This document shows positions 1 through 38,214 of a DNA stretch of 64,000 nt, in pieces. The DNA comes from Naegleria gruberi (taxonomy: Eukaryota). A program made the position numbers and the translations under genes. The notes beneath the pieces were generated by a model. The model was not told the DNA's origin. It did no database searches and saw nothing but the letters and a program-made list of their open reading frames with translations. How positions within the stretch are numbered: the first letter of the stretch is position 1; every line of letters starts with the position of its first letter. The stretch lies in assembly GCA_000004985.1 (NCBI GenBank), contig GG738846.1. One strand, written 5' to 3'.

Positions 1-1384
1 TTCTTCGTCATCAAATAGGAATCATCAATCCAGTAATCAGAGTCCTCTTCTTAGACTCACCCGATATGAACATATGAATGATTTGGCAAGAATGTTTTTT
101 GAGCAACATTCGGAATTACTTCCAACAACAAGCCTCCGATCATCAAATTCAACCCTCAACAATAATCCATCACCCATTTTTGCATCAAATAGTAATAATA
201 GTAATAGTAATAATAATAGTATTTTGAATAATGTTGCTCTATCACCTAATGTTACACCACCACGAAAAATCACATCACAAAAACAACAAAGGCTAAATGC
301 TGTTGAACATACATTAAAAACACCATCAGAATGGAAGGAAGGCTTGGGTGATATGCCGATTATTCTAGTTAATATGATAGAGGATAATAATTTGGTTAGA
401 CTTTCACCAGAATCAAGATTAGCCTTGTTGATCAGTGGAGATGGTGATAGTCAGGAATACTTATCTGTATTGCCCTCTCATAAACCAAAGACTTTGATTC
501 ATCAAGATAGAAAATTGAAACCCTATATCAAGTGTAAATTTAATGATAAATTAATGAATGGAGAGATAATTACTAGAGGATCTTCCAAGTTTATTGAAAT
601 TAATATTGATACATTATATTCAACCTTTTTCCCAGCTGATAATATTGCTAAATATGAAAATACTAAAATTATCGAACTCGAAATTTTTACTGGAAAACAA
701 ACAAAGAGCTTTTCATTCAATTGCTGTAAAACTAAATCAACTAGAAATTTGAAACGAACAACAATAATTTATGGAGCTTCAGAAGCAAGAATCAAAAATC
801 AAACATTACAAAACGAGGAAAAAGTAAGAAAAACAATAGATAGACTTTCTGATCAATCATCATCATGCTCCTCCTCAAATCATACCATTCCCAAACTAGT
901 TGACGTCAAACCTAGCCACCTTCCAACAATCCACAAAGATCCTCCAACTAGTGATCATGTACATATTCCTCAACATGTTGTTTCCAATCCTCAACAAGTA
1001 TTGCAACAACATTCAACACCAAGAAAAATAACTAGAGAAACTCTAGATCATAATGGAAGAGTTACAAATGTTATTACCGAGTACTACAATAATGACTCCC
1101 CAAAAAAAAAGATGGAACCTCTTGTTCCTTTGAAAAAAGCTAATACACCAACACCTAGAGAGGTCATTTCGCTTGATGATGAAGTGACTGTTACACCATC
1201 AAGAAAGAAACGTAAATCCAATATTAATACCAACAACTCTGTAATTTTGATTGAGGACGAAGAAAAACCACCTGTCAGATCCATTAAGCCAAAACAAGAG
1301 GAAACAGTTATTGCTCCAATAATTGAACCAACAACACCAAAAAAGACAATTTCATTCTCTAGTGTTATTAACCTAGATGATTAG
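1..1384 (+). CDS. N/S-rich, basic, low-complexity protein; 5' partial (reading frame is open back to nt 2, so the start codon is probably upstream of the window)
   Basis: ORF 74..1384 with no in-frame stop upstream to the window edge. Composition is poly-N/S with many K/R residues (nuclear-like). No recognisable catalytic motif. Confidence 0.5.
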   Translation, partial: SSSSNRNHQSSNQSPLLRLTRYEHMNDLARMFFEQHSELLPTTSLRSSNSTLNNNPSPIFASNSNNSNSNNNSILNNVALSPNVTPPRKITSQKQQRLNAVEHTLKTPSEWKEGLGDMPIILVNMIEDNNLVRLSPESRLALLISGDGDSQEYLSVLPSHKPKTLIHQDRKLKPYIKCKFNDKLMNGEIITRGSSKFIEINIDTLYSTFFPADNIAKYENTKIIELEIFTGKQTKSFSFNCCKTKSTRNLKRTTIIYGASEARIKNQTLQNEEKVRKTIDRLSDQSSSCSSSNHTIPKLVDVKPSHLPTIHKDPPTSDHVHIPQHVVSNPQQVLQQHSTPRKITRETLDHNGRVTNVITEYYNNDSPKKKMEPLVPLKKANTPTPREVISLDDEVTVTPSRKKRKSNINTNNSVILIEDEEKPPVRSIKPKQEETVIAPIIEPTTPKKTISFSSVINLDD

Positions 1385-8156: not shown

Positions 8157-11100
8157 ATGTCACACACCACAACGAACGAAAATGTGATGACAGACGAAGA
8201 TCAAATTGTCAACATACACACTGTGGAAGTGGTTGATGAAGATGATAATTTATCTATAAATTCCGATACATTAAGAGCATTGGATGATGAACAAAATAAC
8301 GAAGAACAGCAGCAACAACAGCCTGCCGAATTAAATAATACACAAGAATTGTTGGATGATTTGGGAGGATTTAACGATGATGAAGATGTAAATATTGATA
8401 ATTATGAGGAAAAACCACATAGTAGAAAATACTCTCAAATTGAGGATGACGATGATGTATTGGAAAATTTGGATCTTACCGATCTTTCTCCGATTATTGA
8501 AAATCCTCTCAAGAAACAAAAATTCGATCAAATAGATGAAAATAATCGACCAGTAGAAACATTTGGATTTGTTTCTGCTAAATTAACTTCATCGAGTAAG
8601 GATGAAGAAAATATATCGAGTGAAAAACCACCTGCCACAGATGGTTTTGTGTCTGCTGCTTCAAATAGACCTTCAGAAACATTTGGATTTGTTTCAGCTT
8701 CCTCAAATAATAGACCTGCAGAGACTTTTGGATTCGTCTCTGCCAGACCACCTACAAAGTACACCTATCATCCAGAGGAGGACGATGAAAAACCAGCAGC
8801 AACTGAGGGTTTTGTTTCAGCAGCTCCATCAAAACGTCCACCAGAAACATTTGGATTTATGAAAGCAAATGGAGACAATTTTGAATCAGAAACTGAAGAA
8901 AATTATCAAATTAACAAACCAGCAGCAACAGATGGATTTGTTTCTGCCTCCACTGACAAGCCTTCAGAAACTTTTGGATTTATTTCAGCCTCTTCAAACA
9001 AACCACCTGCTACAGATGGATTTGTCACTGCAGGCAAAGATTCCAAAAAGTATACTTATAACCCTGAGGAAGACGAAAAACCACCTGCTACAGATGGTTT
9101 TGTGTCAGCTGCCTCAAATAATAGACCAGTAGAGACTTTTGGGTTTGTTTCTGCTAGACCACCAACAAAGTATACATATAACCCTGAGGAAGACGATGAA
9201 AAACCACCAGCAACTGAAGGTTTTGTTTCTGCTAAACCAAAAACTAAATTTGATTCACCAACTGAAATAAGGCCATCCGAAACATTTGGATTTGTTTCTG
9301 CCAGGCCGGCCTCCAAGTATACCTATCATCCAGAGGAGGACGATGAAAAACCAGCAGCAACTGAGGGTTTTGTTTCTGCCTCAAATAGACCTTCAGAAAC
9401 TTTTGGATTTGTTTCAGCCTCTTCAAACAAACCAGCACCAACAGATGGATTTGTATCCGCCTCGAATAGAACTAACGAAAATGAGATGGATATTTCAGAT
9501 GAAAGACCACCTGCCACAGATGGTTTTCAAAGCGCCCTAGATAGACCACCACCAACTGAAGGATTTTTGTCTGCATCTAATAGACCACCAGAGACATTTG
9601 GGTTTTTAAAGGCAAACACAAGCACTCCTGCCGAAACTGATGGATTTCAGGTTGCCAATAATCGTCCACCTGCAACAGATGGATTCGTATCGTCTAAATC
9701 GTCTAGTACTTTCAAAACTCCTTCAAAGAATAATGTAAATATTGAATTATCCACACCTAGTAATAATAGTGACATATTTAAAACACCAAGTAAGGTTGGT
9801 AGCTCACTTAATAAGAAAACACCTGCTACGAAGAGAAGTATAAAGAATCCATTTGCTTCTCTTACCACAGAGCAAGGTGACACTAAGAAGGAAACTCCTA
9901 CAAATAGAATCAATGAAACTGTAAAGAAAAAGCAAAAGAAATTTGTAACTCCAATCAAATCGAAGGAAAGTTTTGAAGAAGCTAAAAAACGTGAAAGTGA
10001 AAGGAGGTCAGCTTCCACTTCTTCTTCTTCGTCAATTAGTATCACAAAGAAAACTTCTGACACAACACCAATAACAGCACCAAGCTGGGTACCTGTAAAA
10101 CACCACAAATCTGATTCAAAGGAGGAAGTTCATGTAAAAAGAAGGATAAATACTTTGGGAATATGTGAACAGCTACCTATTGAGAAGATTAAGAGAGAGG
10201 GAGTATCCCAATATTCAATAACAATGACTAGCATTTCCGCCAAGACATTTAAATTTAATTTGAATGATTTCAAAGTATCAAATGAAATGATAGAAGCAAT
10301 AGTGAGCCTTAATGGAAACAAAAGAGTAGTGAATTTTGGAAGTGAAGAATATGAACGGTTATTAGTACATTTTGGTGCTAAAACAAGTGTTGTAAAAACT
10401 GATTGGGTTGAAAATCACTATAGGTGGATTGTTTGGAAATTGGCAAGTCTCGATAGGACATTCCCAAATGACAAGTCTTTTCCATTTTTGACTCCTGAAA
10501 AGGTTTTAGGACAACTAATTTATAGGTATAATGTTGAATTTTGTAAAGGAAAAAGATCATGTTTGAAAATGATTGCTGAAAAGGACATTCCTCCTGGTCA
10601 ATTCATGGTTCTGATGGTATCATCTTTATCAAATAACGATAACGATATGGAAGAATGTAAAACTATAGAACTTAGTGATGGTTGGTACAGTATGAAGGCA
10701 AAATTAGATGAACAACTATCCAGGTATTTGGAATGGTGCAAGATACGTATAGGTCAAAAATTGAGAATTGTAGGAGCATCTTTTGTTGAAAATTTTGAAC
10801 CTGCTCCTCCTTTGGAGTTGCCTGGAAATGCATGTTTAAAGCTGAGCATTAATGGTGTTAGAAAGGCTCACTGGGATACCACATTAGGATTCCAATACGG
10901 AAGAATGCCTTTCAAAGTTTCATTCAAATCCATTCAAAGCAATGGAGGAAATATTCCTTGTATCAGAGCCATTGTTAAAAGAGTGTATCCACAAAAGTTC
11001 TTGGAGAAAATCACTGACGAAAGTGGTACTGTCTCGACAATCATTAGAACTAAACAAGCTGAAGATTACATCTCTGCTATTAATGAGAAGGAAAGAGAAA

Positions 11101-12911
11101 AATTAATGGCTACACTTCAACCAACCTATTACGATGAAGAAAAGAAGAAAATTATTGGACCTAAGAAAAATATCACAACACCGATCAAGAGAATTTATGA
11201 GGGATCTGTTCTTTACAAGCTCTTATCAGAATGCAGAGATGAGTCATCATTTTATGCCCAATTGAATGAGACACAACACCAAAATTTAGAGAATTACCAA
11301 CGTAACATTGAGAGTGAGATTCAATCAAGAGTTTCTCAAAGATTAACAACCACTTTGGATCAACATCCAACTCTCAATAGAAATGTCTCTGCTATGGTAA
11401 CTGTTAGATTGGGTGATTGCTGTCCTTATTCGAAAAATCCTGGTGTAACGATGAACGATAAGGAAATGATTATTACGTTATGGATTGCAGATGAAGACAA
11501 TGAATCTTTTCAAGAGGGAAATATTATTGACATTTATAATAGTAGATCATCCAAGCAAAGTGGAAGTCAAGTTATGAAGTCAATTTCAGCAATTTCTCAT
11601 ACTAAAGTGGAGATTGTTAAAAATTGGAAGGACTTGACAGATGAAGAAATGAAGGTCTATAGCTATGTACCAAGAAGTTGTATCAATTTTACTCAGGTGA
11701 AAAATCCAGACTGCAGACAGCACAATAACGAATTCGATTTTGCAGGAATACTAGTTTATACAAAAGAAATCGAGCAGAGAGAAAAAGAAAGTACCCTAAA
11801 GTTACTCTACTTTGTAGATTCTACTTCTTTCAATATTTCAGAATCCTCATATTCTAAAAATCCAATAATTATGCAAGTTAGATATTATGAATCAAATAAG
11901 AAACAATTTAGATGGTTCCTAACTCCAGGAAAAGTTTATTATATGGCAAATGTTACCTATTCAGACTTTGATGAAACTAACAATAGAATCAAGTGCTTTG
12001 CCAATGAACAAACTTTCATTTCTGAAAGAGCAACCAAACAACATTTCAAGTCAGCATCCAGTGAAATTAATGCTTTCTTGAAAAACAATAGGGAAAAATG
12101 CCTTTCACTAGAAAGTGTTATCGACCAATTTTCATTTAGAGAGGAAGATTATACAACACCTCGAAAGTCAATATCAAGCAATAATGACATGGAGGATGAT
12201 TTCAGTCTTGACCAAGAAATTAATTGTAATCCAATTATTGATGGCGATCACCAAATTCAAATTACATTATTGGATGGAGGATACAATGTTATTGAGACGT
12301 ATGTATATCCAAAGGATAATAATATTAGCTACAAGAGAGCTGAGGATACATATTCTTTTTATGTAAAACTCTACATTGAAACAAAGGAAGAGTGTTATTC
12401 CATTAAATTTACAGAGGACATGTTTGACAAGCTTGCTAACTGTCTCTATTTTGAAGAGGCAAACAATGCAGGGTTTCATCAATTCAACTTGCAAGACATT
12501 TTACAGTCAGAAACCATACCAGAATGGATTAAAACTCTTGTAAGTGAGGGAAAGATCATACATGAAAATTATGAATCCAATGATTTCACTACAAGGGTTG
12601 AAGAAATTAGAATGAATTTATTCAATTCGAGGAATGTGGATACCATGACAAAATTAATCAGATCTATCATTGTTGGAACCAAATTTATTACCAATTTAGA
12701 GCAGTTAGAAAACTTTATCTATTTGGATTCAGTTCTTGTTTGCTCTCCTGAGGAATGGAATTATTTGATGCAACAATTCATCTCCACACTCAAGAATACC
12801 CTTTTCAAATTCAATATTCGTGGAAGTGATAAACAAGTTATGAACGTCACGTGTATGGTCAGAGATTTTGCATTGGACAATTTAGATCTAGAAGATATCT
12901 TATTAAATTAA
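8157..12911 (+). CDS. BRCA2: BRCA2 orthologue (homologous-recombination mediator): acidic N-terminus, about 21 tandem minimal FxxA (GFVSA) motifs, then BRCA2 helical domain and OB folds
   Basis: Single 1584-aa ORF. '[23 protein letters not shown]…[16 protein letters not shown]…' matches the human BRCA2 helical domain ([21 protein letters not shown]…PERVLLQLKYRYDTEI). '[16 protein letters not shown]…[12 protein letters not shown]' matches OB1 (LTDGWYAVKAQLD…VGQKIILHGAEL). Upstream repeated '[17 protein letters not shown]' motifs resemble the BRC core FxTASGK and the RAD51 'GFTTA' motif. Confidence 0.9.
   Translation: [1584 protein letters not shown]
8545..9715. repeat. In-frame tandem array (about 21 copies) of a 12–14-codon unit encoding '(E)TFGFVSAS…' and 'TDGFVSAS…' within BRCA2, plus four copies of 'KYTY(N/H)[11 protein letters not shown]'
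   Basis: Visible as repeated 'gaaacatttggatttgtttc(t/a)gc' and 'acagatgg(a/t)tttgt…gc' strings. It generates many spurious antisense ORFs (8528..9517). Confidence 0.85.
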
Positions 12912-18720: not shown

Positions 18721-19121
18721 TTGTTTATTGGGAGGTAATAATATACAAACTCAATTTTATATCAAGTACAACTTATCAATTTGGAAGAGAGGACAATTAG
18801 GAAAAATTAATTGAATTTATTACTTTTTAAACTTATTACCATGGTAACCTCTTTGATAGCTAATAGTGACACAATTTCTCAAGTACTTTGCAATGGACGA
18901 TTCATCTTTGAGTATCATACAACCTTCCAAACTCTTCCAATGATAGATTACTATATTGTTCTACAATATTTCTCAAAAAGAAAACATGAAACATGATTAA
19001 TTTACACGAAACTTGGTTGGCTTCCCATGATTTTTCACATCTTTCAGAGTCTGATTCGTTCAATCTGGATAATTGAGGATACATCTTGATTACCCATAGA
19101 GCATTTCTGATAGAAGTTTCC

Positions 19122-20840
19122 TCAACGATGGATTTCTTTACAGCTCCAGGTTAGTTTGCTTTCGCCTAAAATTGAAAGTTTTGGAAGAAATTCACCAAGG
19201 TTTGGACAAGAAGATTTCAATCTCTCCTTTTCTGTGTTGTTAAATTGATTAACTTGATGCTCGAAACGTTTAACAATTCTAGGAAACTTTTCACTTAAAT
19301 AAATTAACCATCTATGGAAATACATATAACCATACAATGCCTTAATTGAGGCATGAGTATTACCCTTCATGATTTCAACGACCATAGAATTCATCAGCTT
19401 ACACATGAGATCTGCATAAACGACCCAATTATCAAAATTTGGTTTCTCACAATGATTGTAAACTGTTGGATGAGAATTGTAAATTTCTTGAATTGACTTT
19501 TTCAATCTCTCAAAATTTCCATGTTTTCTATTAATGTAAATTGGAATCCAATGTGTGAATGTTGATCCCCAAACACTCTTTCTGACTCTCTCTTCATAAA
19601 ATGACTTTCTGGAGAGGAGATCGAGTGGTGAGGAGATGGAGGCAACTGTGCCATCTTTCTTCGTTTCGAATGAGAGACCAATACCAAGTATATCCTCCTT
19701 GAAACTTTCTTTCGAATGGTAACAAATTAATTCTCGTGCAGTGGAGAGAAGTTTGTACTCACACAATTCGAGGAGATGTTTGCTTGATTTTTCGACTTTC
19801 TTCAAATCAGAGTGAGTTAAATAGGTGAGAATGTGCAGGAGAATTTCATTTGGAATGTCATTGAATGAAGTGTTTGGAGCTTGAACTCCCTTTTCAACTG
19901 TGCCAACGTTGGTAGTTACATCAACACCAGTATCTTCTGTGAAGATAGAATTGACTAGCTCAGGTGCTGTAGAAGTGGAAGTAGTTACTGGAAGAGGTGT
20001 TGTTGCAGATTCATTTGTAAATTTAACGAAACCCATTTGATTTAGAATTTTGAGGAGGTAATTTTGAATATGTGAAATAATGGATACACTGTATGATAAC
20101 GGAGGTTCAACAGGAGTAGCTAATTCTTCCTTGATTTCTTCCTTTGGTTTAGTTTTCTTTCCAATATCTTCTTGTTCCATTGTTTCAACCTTGACAACTG
20201 ATTTCTTTTTCTTATTCTTCTTTGGCTTGCTAACTAGAGTACTAACTAATTCTTTCTCCTTCTTTGGAACAATAGCTTTCTTAACCACAATTGGTTTTGG
20301 CTCATATTTGGAAGTCAATATTTCATTAACATTCCAATGAGGAGCACACGGATAAACAACGCCATTGGAAGGATCGTGTCCAGTTTCATCAAACTTGAAT
20401 GCTCTGGAAAGCTCAATATCAGCTTGAATGAATCCAGCTTGTCTTTCTTCTTCCTCCAAGAGAAAAGATTGCAATTGAAGCAACACAGACAAACATGAAT
20501 AGCTTGTACTCCATCCCATGTAAGGAACTTGAGAAAAGTGATTACTCTCCAAAATATCCAAACAAATCCAACTTCCAAATACATGTGAGTGATGCAATCT
20601 GGTGAGACAATTAATAGTTGGTGGCTTATTTGGATAATCGAGTGGAAAATCAATTTCCAACAAGAGAATAATTCCACGATACTTGGAAGTTTTTGGAGCT
20701 AGCACAGTTGCGTACCACTTGAATAAATCTCCCTTGAATGGTTCTGCATAGACAGTTTCTAATGGATTCATTTGAATTTCTTTCAAATCTTTCATTAATC
20801 TTTTAAGAACTCGATCTTGCTTGTTGTTGTTTGATAACAT
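19122..20840 (-). CDS. Fusion protein: N-terminal ubiquitin-conjugating (UBC/E2) fold with non-canonical HPN motif, central F-box, C-terminal domain of unknown function
   Basis: 572 aa, single exon. 'PPTINCLTRLHHSHVFGSWICLDILE' aligns to the E2 active-site region (…YHPNINSNGSICLDIL…); Cys is retained and HPN is replaced by HHS. 'IPNEILLHILTYLTHSDLKKV' is F-box-like. Confidence 0.7.
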   Translation of the reverse strand: MLSNNNKQDRVLKRLMKDLKEIQMNPLETVYAEPFKGDLFKWYATVLAPKTSKYRGIILLLEIDFPLDYPNKPPTINCLTRLHHSHVFGSWICLDILESNHFSQVPYMGWSTSYSCLSVLLQLQSFLLEEEERQAGFIQADIELSRAFKFDETGHDPSNGVVYPCAPHWNVNEILTSKYEPKPIVVKKAIVPKKEKELVSTLVSKPKKNKKKKSVVKVETMEQEDIGKKTKPKEEIKEELATPVEPPLSYSVSIISHIQNYLLKILNQMGFVKFTNESATTPLPVTTSTSTAPELVNSIFTEDTGVDVTTNVGTVEKGVQAPNTSFNDIPNEILLHILTYLTHSDLKKVEKSSKHLLELCEYKLLSTARELICYHSKESFKEDILGIGLSFETKKDGTVASISSPLDLLSRKSFYEERVRKSVWGSTFTHWIPIYINRKHGNFERLKKSIQEIYNSHPTVYNHCEKPNFDNWVVYADLMCKLMNSMVVEIMKGNTHASIKALYGYMYFHRWLIYLSEKFPRIVKRFEHQVNQFNNTEKERLKSSCPNLGEFLPKLSILGESKLTWSCKEIHR

Positions 20841-23503: not shown

Positions 23504-25225
23504 TCAACAGATATCAAGTGATGTCAATTGTTTCATTTCAATTATTGATTTGGCTCCTTCATCACCGATTTGATTTCCACTAATATCAAGTGATGTTAAT
23601 TGTTTCATTTCACTTATGAATTTGGCTCCTTCATCACCAATTCGATTGATATAAATACTAAGTGATGTCAATTGTTTCATTTCACAAATTGATTTGGCTC
23701 CTTCATCACCAATTAGATTGTTATAAACACTAAGTGATGTTAATTGTTTCATTTCACTTATGAATTTAGCTCCTTCATCACCAATTTCATTTTCACCAAT
23801 ATTAAGTGATGTCAATTGTTTCATTTCACTTATTGATTTGGCTCCTTCATCACCAATTAGATTGCTATAAACACTAAGTGATGTTAATTGTTTCATTCCA
23901 CTTATGAATTTAGCTCCTTCATTACCAATTTCATTTTGACCAATATTAAGTGATGTCAATTGTTTCATTTCACTTATTGATTTGGCTCCTTCATCACCAA
24001 TTTCATTTTCACCAATATTAAGTGATGTTAACTGTTTCATTTCACTTATTGATTTGGCTCCTTCATCACCAATTTGATTGAAATAAATATCAAGTGATGT
24101 CAATTGTTTCATTTCACTTATTGATTTGGCTCCTTCATCACCAATTAGATTGTTATAAACACTAAGTGATGTTAATTGTTTCATTCCACTTATGAATTTA
24201 GCTCCTTCATCACCAATTTCATTTTGACCAATATTAAGTGATGTCAATTGTTTCATTTCACTTATTGATTTGGCTCCTTCATCACCAATTTCATTTTCAC
24301 CAATATTAAGTGATGTTAACTGTTTCATTTCACTTATTGATTTGGCTCCTTCATCACCAATTTGATTGAAATAAATATCAAGTGATGTCAATTGTTTCAT
24401 TTCAATTATTGATTTGGCTCCTTCATCACCAATTTGATTTTCACCAATATCAAGTGATGTCAATTGTTTCATTTCAATTATTGATTTGGCTCCTTCATCA
24501 CCAATTTGATTGCAAAAAACACTAAGTGATGTTAATTGATTCATTCCACTTATGAATTTAGCTCCTTCATCACCAATTCGATTGTTATAAATACTAAGTG
24601 ATGTTAACTGTTTCATTTCAATTATTGATTTGGCTCCTTCTACACCAATTAGATTTTCACCAATATCAAGTGATGTTAATTGATTCATTCCACTTATGAA
24701 TTTGGCTCCTTCATCACCAATTCGATTGTTATAAACACTAAGTGATTTTAATTGTTTCATTCCACTTATGAATTTAGCTCCTTCATCACCAATTTGATTT
24801 TCACCAATATCAAGTGATGTTAATTGATTCATTTCACTTATTGATTTGGCTTGTTCAAGAGAGTCAAGCAACCTTCTCGAAAATTTAACATTGACAATAC
24901 TATTCATAAATTGACTTTTCATGAATAATTTAATTCGTTTCTCTGTAAATTTTTTGTTAAATTCAATAACGAGTTTTGAACGTTCCTTGATCACATGAAA
25001 GAATTGTTTTGAAATCAAAGAACAATTATTCAAAATAAACCACGAATCATCAATCATGGAAATTATTTCAAAACAAACATCATCCGAAAATATTTCTTGG
25101 AGCACAAGTTTTTTCTTTTTTGTTTTCTCTTCCATGTTATTTTTGATCCGAAATTGCTTTTCAAAATCTTGAATGCTTCGTTTACTCATTTTTTTGTGTT
25201 TGCGAAAATGCCTCAACATTACCAC
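23504..25225 (-). CDS. F-box-like plus RNI-type leucine-rich-repeat protein (about 19 × 24-aa 'LTSLxIxxNxIGDEGAKxISEMKQ' repeats)
   Basis: 573 aa. N-terminal 'VCFEIISMIDDSWFILNNCSLISKQFF' is F-box-like. The long run of near-identical 24-aa LRRs contains the GDEGA motif typical of RNI/NLR-type LRRs. Confidence 0.8.
   Translation of the reverse strand: MVMLRHFRKHKKMSKRSIQDFEKQFRIKNNMEEKTKKKKLVLQEIFSDDVCFEIISMIDDSWFILNNCSLISKQFFHVIKERSKLVIEFNKKFTEKRIKLFMKSQFMNSIVNVKFSRRLLDSLEQAKSISEMNQLTSLDIGENQIGDEGAKFISGMKQLKSLSVYNNRIGDEGAKFISGMNQLTSLDIGENLIGVEGAKSIIEMKQLTSLSIYNNRIGDEGAKFISGMNQLTSLSVFCNQIGDEGAKSIIEMKQLTSLDIGENQIGDEGAKSIIEMKQLTSLDIYFNQIGDEGAKSISEMKQLTSLNIGENEIGDEGAKSISEMKQLTSLNIGQNEIGDEGAKFISGMKQLTSLSVYNNLIGDEGAKSISEMKQLTSLDIYFNQIGDEGAKSISEMKQLTSLNIGENEIGDEGAKSISEMKQLTSLNIGQNEIGNEGAKFISGMKQLTSLSVYSNLIGDEGAKSISEMKQLTSLNIGENEIGDEGAKFISEMKQLTSLSVYNNLIGDEGAKSICEMKQLTSLSIYINRIGDEGAKFISEMKQLTSLDISGNQIGDEGAKSIIEMKQLTSLDIC
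23520..24870. repeat. Tandem 72-bp DNA repeat (about 19 units, very high unit-to-unit identity) encoding the LRR array
   Basis: 'caattgtttcatttca(c/a)ttattgatttggctccttcatcaccaat…' recurs with a 72-nt period. Confidence 0.85.
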
Positions 25226-26355: not shown

Positions 26356-29300
26356 TTGAGTGGAACTACCACTAGTTTAAGACTTGCATGCTACAATGTT
26401 AACGGTCTATACAAGCATGCAGTCCATAAATCTGTAACTCAAGAATTGAAATCTATGTGTTTAACACATGGAGTTCATATGATGAGTATTACAGAAACAC
26501 ACGTTAACACTACTGAATTAGAAATTAAAGTTAGAAATTCTGGTTCAGGTTATTTATTAATTAACTCCCTTATGGGTCGATCTAAAGGCTGTAGTTATGC
26601 ACTTTTTAAATAATCATAGAAAGCGTAACATTACCAATAATAATTTAGTACCTGGAATCTTACAATGGACAAGATTTGAAAGCAGGGGAATTCCAATTAA
26701 TTTATTTACTATTTATTTAAGTGGCAGATCAGATGATTATGAAAATGATCAAGAAGCCATTAACAGTTTTATCAATGCTGTTTTAACATGTAAAGATGAA
26801 CATATTATTTTAAGTGGGGATCTTAATATTGATACTCAAAACCCCACTACTACAAGAGAAAAGGATTGGATTTGGATTCTTGAAATGTTAAAATTGACAG
26901 AATTCAAAACACCAAATTATACATGGATTAGACGAAGTCAGGGAACTTTAAATAGATCTAGACCTGACCATATCTTTGTCTCAAAGAATATTAGAGTGGT
27001 AAAGGAAGTAATTATGACACCTTTGACCACTAATGATCATGTCCCTTTTTATTTAGATTTAGAATCTAATCTTACTTGGAGAACTTACTTTAGTAAGAAT
27101 AAGAGGAAAAGAATGTACGAAGCAATTAATAAGTGTAAAATTGACAATTTTCAAGAGCTGAATCAAGCAATTGAGGCTCAAATAATTAAATATGGATCCA
27201 AAGTAGATAGATTAGGAGTTGGAAGAATTTCTACAGCATTTAAAGAAGAAATTCAAGATTTAGAGGATGAAATATTATCTAAAATTAATAACCCTAATAT
27301 TCCTCAATCAGAAATACAAGAACTACAAACACTCCTAAAAGAAACACATATTAATAATGCAAAAGAAATTAAGGAAAAACTTATAACTCTTCATCGAGAA
27401 TGTATCAATTTGATAAAATGATACACTCTAACCAAATTATGTGGAAAGACCTTAACTTTGAAGAAGAAGAAATAGTGGATTACTTTACAAACAAATTTAC
27501 CTCCACTAATCAACAACCAACATTCACACCAAGTAATTCAACTATCAAAGAAGGTCCAGATTGGAGCAATTCGATTCATATTAAAGAGCTACAAGATGCT
27601 CTCAAACGAATGAAATCAAACACTTCTGGGCCTGATCTAATCTCACTCGATTTAATTAAACATCTTACAGAAGCCAATCAAGGAATCCTCTTAGAAGAAT
27701 ATAATAGATGTTTAAGAGATGGTGATATTCCACAAAATTGGAAACAAGGATGGGTAAAACTCATTCCTAAAAGAGAAATTAATACCTTAAGTGATATTCG
27801 CCCAATTACTATTTTACCAATATTTTACAGAATATTATTTAATATTATAGCATTTAGATTGAGATCTTGGGCATCAACTCATATTAATGTTAGACAACAA
27901 GCATTTATTACAGACAGAAATACTTTGAATCATGGTGTATTACTCTCTGCCTTAGCAATGAAAACAAGGAAAAGGACTTTTATTTTAGTGAATTTAGATA
28001 TAGAAGGGGCGTATGATGCAGTCGAATTACCTGTCATCAAAATGGCCCTAGACCACTGTAAATACCCTTCAGAACTTACTCAATTCATTTTAAATGCTTA
28101 TGCTAACCATGAACTTCAATTAGAAATTGATAATCATCTCTCTGATAAATTTAAGAAAACAAGAGGAATACCACAAGGCTGTCCACTGGCCCCTCTTATA
28201 TACGATTGTATTACCCAATTAATAATTGACAAAGCAATTGATAAGTGGAAGATACCAATCAAACCAGGCAAACTATGTGCAAATGATATTGCACTCTGCT
28301 GTTTTGCTGATGATATGAATGTTGTATGTGACAGATATTCCAAGTATAATGACTAGACAATATTCATGATTGGTTACATCAATTATTATTTAAATTGAAT
28401 GCTAAGAAATCAGTAGCAACTCTATTACCTAAAAAGAGCACAGTCTCACCTAAAATCAAAGGTACTCCAGTACCTAAACAGAAAAACCTTAGAGTACTTG
28501 GCCATTACCCTTGGGATGATACTTTGGTAATACAAGACATCCAATCCAAGATAGACAAATTCTCAAAATCATTAAGATTTTTACCATTATTCAAATTACA
28601 GCCAACAAACCTTAAAATAATTATGCATGCTAAAGCAATCAGCCTATTCACTCACCTCTCAAAAATCAATATAATCCCTTTAAAGAAAGCTCAGGAAATA
28701 GATCGTGCAATTAGAGGTGCAATCAGACGTAAATTATTAATGGACAGAGCAACTCCAACAAGTTTCTTTCACCTGCCATTAGAAGAAGGTGGATTAGGAT
28801 TACCATCAATTGAGGAATTCTCTGAAAGAATGAATTTAAGAACTATGAATTTAATCGCCAATAATAAGAATAAGTTAATAAGAAAAGCTTTCAAATATGG
28901 TATCAAACATTGTGAGGAAACTAAAGATAATATTTATGCTAAATGGTTATCTGTACTTAAAGAATATAATCTCACATTTGTGCAGAATGATACGAAATTT
29001 AGAATAGCCAAAATCAAAACAGGGAATAGTTTCGATATCCATACAGATGGATCTAGAATTAATCAAAAGACAGGAATGGGTATTAATATTTATGATACCT
29101 CAAATAGATCAGTTCCTTGTAAAACTTTATCCCTCAGAATCAATAATCATTATTCAAATAATATAGCCGAAATATGCTCCATAATAACTTCTATTAATGT
29201 AATCCCACGAAACTCTAAAGTTACCATTCATACAGATAGTGAAGTTGCAATAGAAGTTCTCAAAGATAGATACAAAGGAGATTTTCTAACATTAAAAGAA

Positions 29301-29924
29301 GCCTTCTTTAGAACAACCAAAAATAGAAAAATAGAATATGAAATTAAGAAAGTTGAAGCACACAAAGATAGCGAGAATATCAAGGTTGATTTAATAGCAA
29401 AGAATGCTACAACCAGAGAGGATATTTTTGATATTCGTAATTTACTCAAGAATCAACACCTCCTTGTTAAGGATGGTGTTGTCGTCTTCAATCATAAGAA
29501 GATGACCATAACAAGACATTTAAGTGTAAGACATAATAAGATGAATGAAAACCCTAACTTTATTCTAAACCAAAGTTGGGATTCTCTTAATGTGCAATAC
29601 CTTAAAACTCGTCTTACTCCTAAAACTAAATACTTTATATGGAGAAATTCCATCAATGCCCATATCAATTTTGGTAAGGGTAAAAGTTTCTGTTACGATT
29701 GTGGTACAGAATCTGATTTATTCCATTACATTCATGAGTGCCCTGGCTTGGATAGTGCCAGGTATTTTTGTAAATCAAAGATATCTGATATTCTTGAAGG
29801 GAGAGAGTGCTTACTTTCTCATTTTCAATTCAAACCAGAAAAGCACCACCATGCATTACATTTCCATCATAACGGAATCACCTCTTTGGAAGATGGATAC
29901 ATGCAATTCCATAAAGATACATAA
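26356..29924 (+). mobile_element. Non-LTR (LINE) retrotransposon ORF2, degenerate: APE endonuclease, reverse transcriptase, RNase H, C-terminal CCHC zinc knuckle; broken into 4 ORFs by at least 3 frameshifts
   Basis: 'LACYNVNGL…' and 'TNDHVPFYLDLE' are APE N- and C-terminal motifs. 'SDIRPITILPIFYRIL…IPQGCPLAPLIYD…CFADDMNVVC' are RT motifs including YxDD→FADD. 'FDIHTDGSRIN…EICSII…KVEAHKD' is RNase H. 'CYDCGTESDLFHYIHECPG' is the zinc knuckle. Frames change at about 26600, about 27410 and about 28360. Confidence 0.85.
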
Positions 29925-38141: not shown

Positions 38142-38214
38142 CGCCCACCGTGGGGGTCGAACCCACGACCACAAGGTTAAGAGCCTTGCGCTCTACCGAC
38201 TGAGCTAGACGGGC
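38142..38214 (-). tRNA. tRNA-Lys (anticodon CTT), 73 nt, no intron
   Basis: Minus strand reads GCCCGTCTAGCTCAGTCGGTAGAGCGCAAGGCTCTTAACCTTGTGGTCGTGGGTTCGACCCCCACGGTGGGCG. 7-bp acceptor stem with two G·U pairs. A box TAGCTCAGTCGG. B box GGTTCGACC. Anticodon loop CTCTTAA gives CTT. T-rich tract (TTTCCTTTTGATTTT) directly downstream is a Pol III terminator. Confidence 0.93.

What the first reader, a model, noticed from the sequence alone, without database searches (positions are those of the whole stretch)
19122..20840. Single polypeptide fusing a UBC (E2) fold with altered HPN motif to an F-box
Residues 1 to about 160 have the E2 fold, with the active-site Cys retained in 'GSWICLDIL'. The invariant HPN triad is replaced by 'HHS'; the Asn is needed to stabilise the oxyanion during Ub transfer. 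About 170 residues later there is a clear F-box ('IPNEILLHILTYLTHSDLKKV'), then a domain of about 200 aa with no recognisable family. An E2-like domain covalently attached to an SKP1-binding F-box is an unusual architecture. It could deliver a (pseudo-)E2 or a UEV-like ubiquitin-binding module into an SCF complex, or act as a dominant regulator of CUL1 ligases.
Basis: partly seen in the sequence, partly recalled or inferred. Interest (0 to 1): 0.62.

Follow-up and report, generated by a model that had tools for sequence, protein, structure and literature searches.

The report
E2 fused to F-box and UBR4-like ligase module
This Naegleria gruberi gene joins a ubiquitin-conjugating enzyme, an F-box and a domain predicted to fold like the catalytic E3 module of human UBR4, an arrangement shared by a large, apparently undescribed protist family, but the copy in this window is cut short by a frameshift and a deletion.

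Summary
The 572-aa ORF (19122..20840, minus strand) exists. It has a significant UBC domain (Pfam E=1.7e-21) with the catalytic Cys retained (C93), and a genuine F-box (aa 326-366). Three corrections follow.

1. HPN aligns to H84-S85-H86, not 'HHS'.
3. The ORF is not the whole gene. Homology continues to 18820 in two other frames, after a frameshift at about 19144 and a deletion of about 42 codons. A 233-aa N. gruberi protein from another small contig is identical up to the frameshift and is intact across both lesions. The window therefore carries a disrupted allele or an assembly error.

The window is N. gruberi NEG-M. The C-domain family has about 2,800 cluster representatives. Of members with more than 300 residues upstream, 68 of 71 carry the UBC. 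About half have the F-box, which ends about 4 residues before the C-domain.

Best reading: a single-chain E2-E3 ligase that can also bind SKP1. I found no description of this architecture in the searchable literature.

The parts
18820..20840 (-). Whole homologous gene region: the 572-aa ORF plus the out-of-frame 3' continuation, down to the stop codon at 18820-18822.
   Evidence: tblastn of paralogue P0001 gives three collinear HSPs in frames -3, -1 and -2.
19122..20840 (-). The open reading frame as flagged (572 aa). Its last 6 codons and its stop are frameshifted read-through.
20313..20810 (-). UBC (E2) core, aa 11-176.
   Evidence: Pfam UQ_con E=1.7e-21. The AF2 model of paralogue P0001 superposes on UBE2D/Rad6 with TM (target-normalised) 0.72-0.78 over about 155 columns.
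20583..20591 (-). H84-S85-H86, the position of the canonical HPN triad.
   Evidence: HMMER alignment to UBE2D1. Family distribution of this triad: HPN 48, N->H 39 of 104.
20562..20564 (-). Catalytic Cys93 (WICLD).
   Evidence: Aligned to UBE2D C85. Cys in 100/104 family members.
19866..20312 (-). Lys/Pro/Glu/Thr-rich linker, aa 177-325. Poorly conserved and predicted disordered in the paralogue.
   Evidence: Alignment A1. pLDDT below 50 for the equivalent stretch of P0001. Median UBC-to-C-domain spacing in the family is 147 aa.
19743..19865 (-). F-box, aa 326-366 (IPNEILLHILTYLTHSDLKKVEKSSKHLLEL...).
   Evidence: Pfam F-box-like is above its gathering score. The family F-box profile hits FBXL5, FBXW7 and SKP2. 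Helices are predicted at the equivalent positions of P0001.
19443..19736 (-). Beta-rich subdomain resembling the hemiRING, aa 369-466. It holds the family-invariant Cys373 (CYH) and His440 (INRKH).
19143..19442 (-). First part of the helical subdomain resembling UZI, aa 467-566 (helices 1-4 and the start of 5), still in frame.
19143..19146 (-). Frameshift site: after TGG (Trp565), one codon has lost 2 nt or gained 1.
   Evidence: HSP1 ends at 19143 and HSP2 starts at 19144 in another frame. The intact copy P0129 reads TWSSVKK here.
18911..19144 (-). Continuation of the UZI-like subdomain in frame -1 (AVKKSIVEETS...GRLYDT). It includes the 60-aa ORF 18902..19084.
   Evidence: 85% identical to P0001 and 97% identical to P0129.
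18908..18924 (-). Deletion junction. About 42 codons plus 2 nt are missing (NYGCPP...YVGVRN in P0129), and the frame changes again.
18820..18907 (-). Last conserved segment in frame -2 (LKDESSIAKYLRNCVTISYQRGYHGNKFKK*).

Best explanation
The locus is one copy of a Naegleria gruberi gene from a large, unnamed protist family. The family's proteins are built, from N to C terminus, of:
- a catalytically competent UBC (E2) core;
- a long flexible linker;
- in about half of members, a canonical F-box;
- immediately after it, a domain of about 340 aa whose predicted fold is that of the UBR4 hemiRING-UZI E3 module, the module that docks and modestly activates UBE2A~Ub in human UBR4.

Shown here: the domain identities, their fixed order, their near-obligatory co-occurrence, and the truncation of this copy.

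Inferred mechanism: the protein is a single-chain E2-E3 ligase.
1. E1 charges the tethered UBC domain on Cys93 while it is undocked.
2. The linker lets the UBC domain swing onto the hemiRING-like face of its own C-terminal module, or that of a partner.
3. That module positions or activates E2~Ub for discharge.
4. The F-box binds SKP1. This either plugs the E2-E3 cassette into a CUL1 scaffold or places the protein under SCF control.
In other family members the same UBC plus E3-module cassette is joined to LRR, VWA, S1, RRM, CCCH or CLU domains, which would be the substrate-binding parts.

The H-S-H triad is a clade-specific variant of HPN (Asn->His). It most likely keeps a hydrogen-bonding side chain at the active site.

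The copy in this window has a frameshift at about 19144 and an out-of-frame deletion of about 128 nt near 18911. As written, it would encode a protein lacking helices 5-11 of the helical subdomain. A near-identical intact version of the 3' end lies on another small contig of the same assembly. The window copy is therefore a disabled allele or duplicate, or carries assembly errors.
For: Source and copies:
- Three window ORFs are exact matches to N. gruberi NEG-M proteins.
- Paralogues P0001, P0002 and P0055, and orthologues in N. lovaniensis, N. fowleri, Willaertia and Acrasis, share the architecture.

Domains:
- UBC and F-box are significant.
- The C-domain model is confident (pLDDT 88, pTM 0.89, no templates).
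- Foldseek finds one significant hit, 8b5w 'E3 module from UBR4': E=1.6e-5, probability 1.0, TM 0.62.
- The model has a beta-rich part followed by about 11-12 helices, as described for hemiRING plus UZI.

Family:
- 2,831 cluster representatives at E<=1e-3 and 1,020 at <=1e-30.
- 68 of 71 members with more than 300 aa upstream carry the UBC. It is N-terminal in 116 of 117. The F-box ends a median of 4 aa before the C-domain.
- Accessory domains vary.
- Cys is kept in 100/104, and the Asn position is N or H in 97/104.
- pTM of 0.76 for the full-length paralogue, despite about 130 disordered residues, hints at a predicted UBC/C-domain contact (indirect).

Known biology:
- UBR4 holds its E2 through the hemiRING and additional sites (PMC10873205; 10.1101/2024.12.18.629163).

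Truncation:
-.
- Intact counterpart P0129 (NAEGRDRAFT_76881): 88/88 identical up to the frameshift, 76/78 after it, and it contains the missing 42 aa.
Against: - No sequence-level link to UBR4. Pfam and PDB profile searches of the C-domain find nothing, even at E<=10. The link rests on predicted structures only.
- The C2HC zinc ligand set of the UBR4 hemiRING is not conserved. Only one Cys and one His are family-invariant. A second His is present in 75% of members, with Tyr or Phe in the rest. This subdomain may not be a zinc finger and may not bind an E2 as a RING does.
- I could not inspect coordinates or PAE, so the cis docking of the UBC on the C-domain is not shown.
- SKP1 binding, E1 charging and any ligase activity are untested.
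- About half the family lacks a detectable F-box, so SCF coupling cannot be central to the cassette.
- The window copy itself may never make a functional protein.
Confidence: 0.55

Rival explanations
1. First reader's view. The UBC domain is a pseudo-E2/UEV-like ubiquitin binder (HPN lost) that the F-box delivers into SCF complexes, or the protein acts as a dominant regulator of CUL1 ligases.
For: The Asn of HPN is replaced in this protein. The F-box is genuine.
Against: - The catalytic Cys is kept here and in 100/104 family UBC domains.
- 48/104 members have a canonical HPN.
- The Asn position is restricted to N or H.
- Human E2s without HPN (UBE2J, UBE2Q) are active (10.1101/2023.03.05.531151).
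- This view does not explain the obligatory pairing with a domain that has an E3-module fold.
Confidence: 0.1
2. Ordinary SCF substrate receptor. The F-box recruits SKP1-CUL1-RBX1, the C-terminal domain is simply a substrate-binding domain, and the N-terminal UBC is an accessory that raises the local E2 concentration for RBX1.
For: F-box followed by a C-terminal interaction domain is the standard layout of F-box proteins. The F-box profile matches SKP2, FBXW7 and FBXL5.
Against: - About half of the family has UBC plus C-domain without any detectable F-box, and uses other accessory domains (LRR, VWA, S1, CCCH) as likely binders.
- The conserved unit is UBC plus C-domain, not F-box plus C-domain.
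- The only structural relatives of the C-domain are E2-recruiting modules of UBR ligases.
Confidence: 0.15
3. The feature at these coordinates is a dead gene copy (pseudogene or null allele). The 572-aa ORF is a remnant and is not a functional truncated protein.
For: - There are two independent lesions: a frameshift at about 19144 and an out-of-frame deletion of about 128 nt near 18911.
- No protein model for this ORF is present in the protein collection, although neighbouring genes are.
- The truncation removes 7 of about 11 helices and the invariant E, R and W residues of the helical subdomain.
Against: - The first 566 codons are intact with every family-invariant residue.
- The displaced 78-codon segment has no stop and is 97% identical to the intact copy, so the damage is very recent or is an artefact.
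- An intact near-identical 3' end exists in the same genome.
Confidence: 0.4
4. The frameshift and deletion are assembly or sequencing artefacts. The real locus is intact, and the 3.7-kb contig encoding P0129 is the correct sequence of the same place.
For: P0129 is 100% identical over the 88 aa before the frameshift and lies on a tiny unplaced contig.
Against: - The two sequences also differ by substitutions (Q/K, A/S, Q/E), as expected for two real haplotypes or duplicates.
- A 128-nt deletion is not a typical base-calling error.
- Naegleria is described as mainly a heterozygous diploid (PMC9928731).
Confidence: 0.25

Closest known systems
Human UBR4 C-terminal E3 module (hemiRING + UZI; PDB 8B5W, and 8BTL with UBE2A), and more distantly the RING/cap-helical region of yeast Ubr1 (7MEY)
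   Same: - It has a beta-rich N-terminal part packed on about 11 helices.
- A Cys lies near the start of the subdomain, where UBR4 has its first zinc ligands.
- The module works with one particular E2.
   Different: - There is no detectable sequence similarity (12% identity; no Pfam or PDB profile hit).
- The C2HC zinc ligand set is not conserved.
- The E2 is fused in cis at the N terminus rather than recruited in trans.
- There is no UBR box, armadillo scaffold or UBL domain.
- An F-box sits where UBR4 has an unresolved region of about 100 aa that raises E2 affinity.
E2/E3 hybrid enzymes UBE2O and BIRC6
   Same: One polypeptide combines a UBC core with the elements needed to select targets and transfer ubiquitin without a separate E3.
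   Different: Those enzymes carry no RING-like or hemiRING-like module and no F-box. Their UBC domain is C-terminal or internal, within very large proteins. No homology outside the UBC core was seen here.
SCF F-box proteins (SKP2, FBXW7, FBXL5, KDM2A/B)
   Same: The 40-aa motif LPxEILxxIFxxLxxx(D/E)LxxVxxVC is present, and the family profile matches these proteins at E=1e-10 to 1e-6.
   Different: The partner domains are an E2 and an E3-module fold instead of WD40, LRR or another substrate binder. About half of the family has no F-box.
Non-canonical E2s without an HPN triad (UBE2J1/2, UBE2Q1/2)
   Same: The UBC fold and catalytic Cys are retained while the HPN triad is altered.
   Different: Here the change is specifically Asn->His (H-x-H), and about half the family keeps HPN. 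No evidence on hydroxyl or other non-lysine reactivity is available.

Membership tests
UBC / E2 ubiquitin-conjugating enzymes (Pfam PF00179) | Sequence match to the UBC core above the curated threshold | tested here: met
   76.7 bits against a cut-off of 27, E=1.7e-21, aa 14-134. UBE2D1-3 score about 1e-18 in the PDB.
UBC / E2 ubiquitin-conjugating enzymes (Pfam PF00179) | Active-site cysteine in the (I/V)C(L)xxL context | tested here: met
   C93 in WICLDIL aligns to UBE2D C85. Cys is present in 100/104 family members.
UBC / E2 ubiquitin-conjugating enzymes (Pfam PF00179) | HPN triad upstream of the Cys | tested here: not met
   H84-S85-H86 in this protein. The family has HPN in 48/104 and Asn->His in 39/104. 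Several active human E2s also lack HPN.
UBC / E2 ubiquitin-conjugating enzymes (Pfam PF00179) | Complete alpha/beta UBC fold | tested here: met
   Shown for paralogue P0001, not the window protein itself. TM (target-normalised) is 0.72-0.78 to UBE2D and Rad6 over about 155 columns.
UBC / E2 ubiquitin-conjugating enzymes (Pfam PF00179) | E1-dependent ubiquitin (or UBL) thioester formation | not testable with these tools
   Needs biochemistry.
F-box proteins (PF12937 / PF00646) | Sequence match to an F-box model above the curated threshold | tested here: met
   PF12937 scores 26.6 bits against 24.3 (met). PF00646 scores 17.3 against 20.5 (below). The family profile hits FBXL5 1e-10, FBXW7 5e-10 and SKP2 6e-9.
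F-box proteins (PF12937 / PF00646) | Three-helix F-box fold | tested here: met
   In the P0001 model, helices 343-350, 355-364 and 366-372 (plus 375-382) have pLDDT of about 85. The window protein was not modelled separately.
F-box proteins (PF12937 / PF00646) | Binding to SKP1 | not testable with these tools
   Needs a pull-down or a complex prediction.
UBR4-type hemiRING-UZI E3 module | Overall fold of both subdomains | tested here: met
   [not shown]
UBR4-type hemiRING-UZI E3 module | C2HC zinc site (UBR4 C4838, C4841, H4887, C4890) | tested here: not met
   Only Cys5 (153/153) and His72 (159/162) of the domain are invariant. Position 7 is His in 116/154 and Tyr or Phe in the rest. Position 69 is N, S, T, D or C. 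Residues were matched to UBR4 by position in the sequence, not by superposition.
UBR4-type hemiRING-UZI E3 module | Sequence homology to UBR4 orthologues | tested here: not met
   No Pfam family at E<=1 for any of 10 members, and no PDB sequence hit at E<=10 with the family profile.
UBR4-type hemiRING-UZI E3 module | Glycine-containing UZI loop acting as a non-RING element (UBR4 G4979/G4980) | tested here: inconclusive
   The loop between helices 1 and 2 carries the conserved motif M-K-G-x-x-H-A-S (Gly in 98/164, Ser invariant). Its equivalence to the UBR4 diGly was not checked by superposition.
UBR4-type hemiRING-UZI E3 module | Binds and activates a cognate E2~Ub | not testable with these tools
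   Contextual support only: the UBC is fused upstream in 68/71 sufficiently long members.

The most novel reading that the evidence does not exclude
These proteins are a widespread, so far undescribed class of natural single-chain E2-E3 ligases in protists. A dedicated UBC domain is tethered to a zinc-poor relative of the UBR4 hemiRING-UZI module. In the F-box subfamily, which includes Naegleria, the whole cassette is plugged through SKP1 into a cullin, giving an SCF that carries its own E2 and a second E3 module (a hard-wired E3-E3 assembly). A further possibility is that the invariant Cys/His pair of the hemiRING-like subdomain is a second catalytic centre rather than a metal site.
Probability: 0.3. 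Interest if true: 0.85.

Novelty: new variant of a known kind. Interest (0 to 1): 0.66.

Why it matters
The hemiRING-UZI module was defined only in 2024, within the UBR4 giant ligase. There it depends on elaborate non-covalent capture of UBE2A.

This work points to a large protist family (about 2,800 clusters at 50% identity) in which a module of the same predicted fold is permanently fused to its own E2. That cassette is then combined with F-box, LRR, VWA, S1, RRM or CCCH domains. If confirmed, it would:
- give a compact, tractable model for how this module activates an E2;
- extend the module's evolutionary range well beyond UBR proteins;
- add a new type to the very short list of E2/E3 hybrids;
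- show a natural case of an E2-E3 unit wired to an SCF adaptor.

It would also give a test case for what an Asn->His change in the HPN triad does to E2 chemistry.

For genome annotation, it shows that this N. gruberi locus is a disrupted copy whose intact 3' end sits on a separate small contig.

Tried and rejected
- **Introns as the cause of the frame changes:** rejected. Every residue of the homologues is accounted for across the first junction, where only 1-2 nt are off. The second junction lacks conserved coding sequence rather than containing extra sequence.
- **Programmed frameshifting:** nothing supports it, and the intact copy P0129 reads straight through.
- **Bacterial or viral origin of the window:** rejected. 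Three ORFs are exact N. gruberi proteins.
- **Sequence-based identification of the C-domain:** Pfam on 10 members and a profile search of the PDB at E<=10 both found nothing.
- **AlphaFold-database fold search:** the library was not available.
- **Recovering genomic context or DNA** for the neighbouring ORFs, P0001 and P0129 with the look-up of encoding contigs: no records. No nucleotide-level comparison of the two copies was possible.
- **Literature:** eight searches and targeted reading found no description of a UBC+F-box or UBC+hemiRING/UZI fusion. Burroughs et al. 2008 on E2 fold diversity is not held, so an earlier mention there cannot be excluded.
- **Direct residue mapping onto UBR4:** not possible, because no UBR4 sequence or model coordinates could be retrieved.
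- **Link between the Asn->His variant and the F-box:** only a mild association (28/39 against 23/58), probably phylogenetic.
Full report
**What is at the coordinates.** The ORF 19122..20840 on the minus strand is real: 572 aa with an ATG start.
- Pfam gives UQ_con at aa 14-134 (E=1.7e-21, 76.7 bits, cut-off 27).
- Pfam gives F-box-like at aa 326-361 (E=5.2e-6, 26.6 bits, cut-off 24.3). The older F-box model PF00646 scores 17.3 bits, below its cut-off of 20.5.
- Against PDB sequences the N-terminal 100-130 residues match UBE2D1-3 at about 1e-18.
- In those alignments Y74-H75-P76-N77 of UBE2D1 pairs with H83-H84-S85-H86, and C85 pairs with C93 in 'WICLDIL'.

It is H-S-H (Pro->Ser, Asn->His), not 'HHS'.

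**Source organism.** Three complete ORFs elsewhere in the window are exact matches to annotated Naegleria gruberi NEG-M proteins on a 1.0-Mb scaffold (XP_002682812, XP_002682608, XP_002682604). The window has 33% G+C. The 572-aa ORF itself is not in the protein collection.

**The ORF is not the whole gene.**
- All homologues extend about 160 aa beyond the ORF's stop (alignment A1).
- tblastn with the N. gruberi paralogue P0001 (734 aa) gives three collinear pieces: aa 13-575 on 20810..19143 (frame -3, 55%), aa 576-653 on 19144..18911 (frame -1, 85%), and aa 692-721 on 18924..18835 (frame -2).
- Reading the DNA, one codon directly after Trp565 has lost two bases or gained one. About 42 codons plus 2 nt are then missing between 'GRLYDT' and 'LKDESSIAKYL'.
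- The remnant ends at a stop codon at 18820-18822.
- Neither junction can be an intron. Nothing extra is present at the first, and conserved coding sequence is absent at the second.
- The last residues of the flagged ORF (CKEIHR*) are read-through in the wrong frame.

**An intact counterpart exists in the same genome.** A profile search with the C-terminal domain returned P0129 (NAEGRDRAFT_76881), 233 aa, encoded on a 3.7-kb contig. Compared with the window:
- it is 88/88 identical up to the frameshift;
- it reads 'TWSSVKK' straight through it;
- it is 76/78 identical over the next segment;
- it contains the 42 residues missing from the window;
- it ends with the same 'RGYHG'.

A few substitutions (Q/K, A/S, Q/E) separate the two copies. 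Naegleria is described as mainly a heterozygous diploid (PMC9928731). The simplest readings are a disrupted allele or very recent duplicate beside an intact one, or an error in the scaffold. I could not obtain the contig's DNA, so I cannot choose between them. As written, the window copy would lack helices 5-11 of the helical subdomain described below.

**The architecture is conserved, so it is not a gene-calling accident.**
- The first search found 28 relatives. They include N. gruberi P0001 and P0002, N. lovaniensis, N. fowleri, Willaertia magna, Acrasis kona, a diatom (Seminavis robusta), and MMETSP and EukProt transcripts. Many carry precomputed PF00179 plus PF12937/PF00646.
- Further named members come from Percolomonas, the amoebozoan Soliformovum, and Symbiodinium pilosum. 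A fourth N. gruberi paralogue is P0055.

**The third domain.**
- The region after the F-box (about 340 aa in intact members) has no Pfam match in any of 10 diverse members. Its profile has no PDB sequence match even at E<=10.
- It is nevertheless a large family. An exhaustive HMMER search of 1.84 billion cluster representatives gave 2,831 hits at E<=1e-3 and 1,020 at E<=1e-30.
- An AlphaFold2 model built without templates from a 10-sequence alignment is confident (pLDDT 88, pTM 0.89). It shows a beta-rich N-terminal part followed by about 11-12 helices.
- Foldseek gives a single significant hit, 8b5w 'Crystal structure of the E3 module from UBR4': E=1.6e-5, probability 1.0, TM 0.62/0.61.
- 8BTL is the complex of that module with UBE2A.

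The module is described in PMC10873205 as follows:
- a single-zinc 'hemiRING' (ligands C4838, C4841, H4887, C4890) that binds UBE2A as a RING does;
- it is packed on an 11-helix 'UZI' subdomain, whose diGly loop helps close E2~Ub;
- an upstream stretch of about 100 aa raises E2 affinity 75-fold;
- UBR1-3 were noted there as the nearest relatives of the UZI.

**How tightly the parts go together.** I built family HMMs for the three regions and scanned the 166 retrieved proteins that contain the C-domain.
- 117 have a UBC domain. It is N-terminal to the C-domain in 116.
- Among proteins with more than 300 residues upstream of the C-domain, which excludes fragments, 68 of 71 have the UBC.
- The median spacing from the end of the UBC to the start of the C-domain is 147 aa.
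- 75 have a detectable F-box (58 with the UBC, 17 without). In the 74 where the spacing was measured, it ends a median of 4 residues before the C-domain.
- Longer members add LRR, VWA, S1, RRM, CCCH zinc fingers, CLU or peroxiredoxin domains.

The conserved unit is therefore UBC plus C-domain. The F-box is one of several add-ons, though a frequent one that is rigidly placed. It is present in all the heterolobosean members seen.

**Is the E2 alive?**
- Across 104 family UBC domains the Cys is present in 100.
- The triad is canonical HPN in 48.
- The Asn position is N in 58 and H in 39, and rarely anything else.
- A full-length model of P0001 (pLDDT 80, pTM 0.76) has a complete UBC core. It superposes on UBE2D and Rad6 with target-normalised TM 0.72-0.78.
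- Human E2s lacking HPN (UBE2J, UBE2Q) are active, some on hydroxyl groups (10.1101/2023.03.05.531151).

I therefore read H-S-H as a clade-specific active-site variant, not as a sign of a pseudo-enzyme.

**Is the F-box real?** A 43-position profile of the family's F-box region matches FBXL5 (1e-10), FBXW7 (5e-10), SKP2 (6e-9), FBXW8, KDM2A/B, Legionella AnkB and cyclin F. Nearly all 45 hits are F-box proteins. SKP1 binding itself is untested.

**Limits of the UBR4 comparison.**
- The similarity is structural and rests on predictions.
- Over about 160 representatives the invariant residues of the C-domain are Cys5, Gly18, Pro65, His72, Ser127, Lys171, Gly178, Trp194, Glu204, Arg208 and Trp212.
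- The candidate second ligand, His7, is Tyr or Phe in a quarter of members. No fourth ligand is conserved.
- The C2HC zinc site is therefore not a family feature. The subdomain may be zinc-poor or zinc-free, as U-boxes are relative to RINGs.
- The conserved M-K-G-x-x-H-A-S loop between helices 1 and 2 lies where the UBR4 diGly loop is expected. I could not superpose structures to confirm this.
- The pTM of 0.76 for a protein with about 130 disordered residues suggests that the model places the UBC against the C-domain. I had no access to coordinates or PAE.

**Most likely mechanism (inferred).** The protein is a single-chain E2-E3.
1. The UBC domain is charged by E1 when free.
2. It then docks through the flexible linker on the hemiRING-like face of the C-domain.
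3. The C-domain orients or activates E2~Ub.
4. Accessory domains choose targets.
5. In the F-box subfamily, SKP1 either couples the cassette to CUL1 or subjects it to SCF control.

I put about 0.55 on this overall. Confidence is much higher on the anatomy and lower on the cis-docking and SCF steps.

Rivals:
- pseudo-E2 delivered to SCF (0.1);
- ordinary substrate receptor with an accessory E2 (0.15);
- for this particular copy, a dead allele (0.4) or an assembly artefact (0.25).

**Novelty.** The individual modules are known, and E2/E3 hybrids exist (UBE2O, BIRC6). I found no description of a UBC fused to a hemiRING-UZI-like module, with or without an F-box. A survey of ubiquitin-system architectures notes that E2s have little interconnection with other domains (PMC4327156). 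One relevant older paper is not held. I rate the finding as a new variant of a known kind. The specific locus in the window is a damaged copy.

Noticed in passing
not in the window: N. gruberi protein P0129 (NAEGRDRAFT_76881) on a 3.7-kb contig; compare window 18835-19406: A 233-aa annotated protein on a tiny separate contig is a near-identical, intact version of the 3' end of the window gene. It is either the other haplotype or a redundant contig. Its gene model starts at an internal Met and is probably truncated.
   Followed up: partly
related proteins P0036, P0040, P0063, P0085, P0093, P0123: The UBC plus C-domain cassette is combined in other protists with LRR, VWA, S1, RRM, CCCH zinc-finger, CLU and peroxiredoxin domains. 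This is the pattern expected of a ligase core with interchangeable targeting domains.
   Followed up: partly
alignments A1/A2, just after UBC helix 3 (window aa ~150-165, 20346-20393): Many non-Naegleria members have a C-x2-C-x-H motif here (for example FSCTCGHS, YSCRRCPHN, FHCANCGHK). It may be a small metal-binding knuckle at the end of the UBC core. The Naegleria paralogues have lost the cysteines (FKFDETGHD).
   Followed up: no
window 8157-12911 (+): A 1,584-aa ORF has BRCA2 helical, OB1 and OB3 domains (E=1e-34 for OB1). It is the N. gruberi BRCA2 homologue.
   Followed up: no
window 26597-29924 (+): Three consecutive ORFs lie in different frames (26597-27421, 27400-28356, 28395-29924). 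The last has an RNase H domain (E=5e-11). The region has the lowest G+C of the window (about 28-29%). It may be a retroelement remnant or a gene split by introns or frameshifts.
   Followed up: no
window 23504-25225 (-): A 573-aa leucine-rich-repeat protein (LRR_6 E=2e-94) lies about 2.7 kb from the start of the E2/F-box gene. LRR domains are also fused to the same cassette in other species, but no link was examined.
   Followed up: no
window 38142-38214 (-): A single tRNA-Lys (CTT) gene.
   Followed up: no
family UBC domains: The Asn->His variant of the HPN triad is somewhat more frequent in members that have the F-box (28/39) than the Asn form is (23/58). This is probably a phylogenetic effect.
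   Followed up: partly
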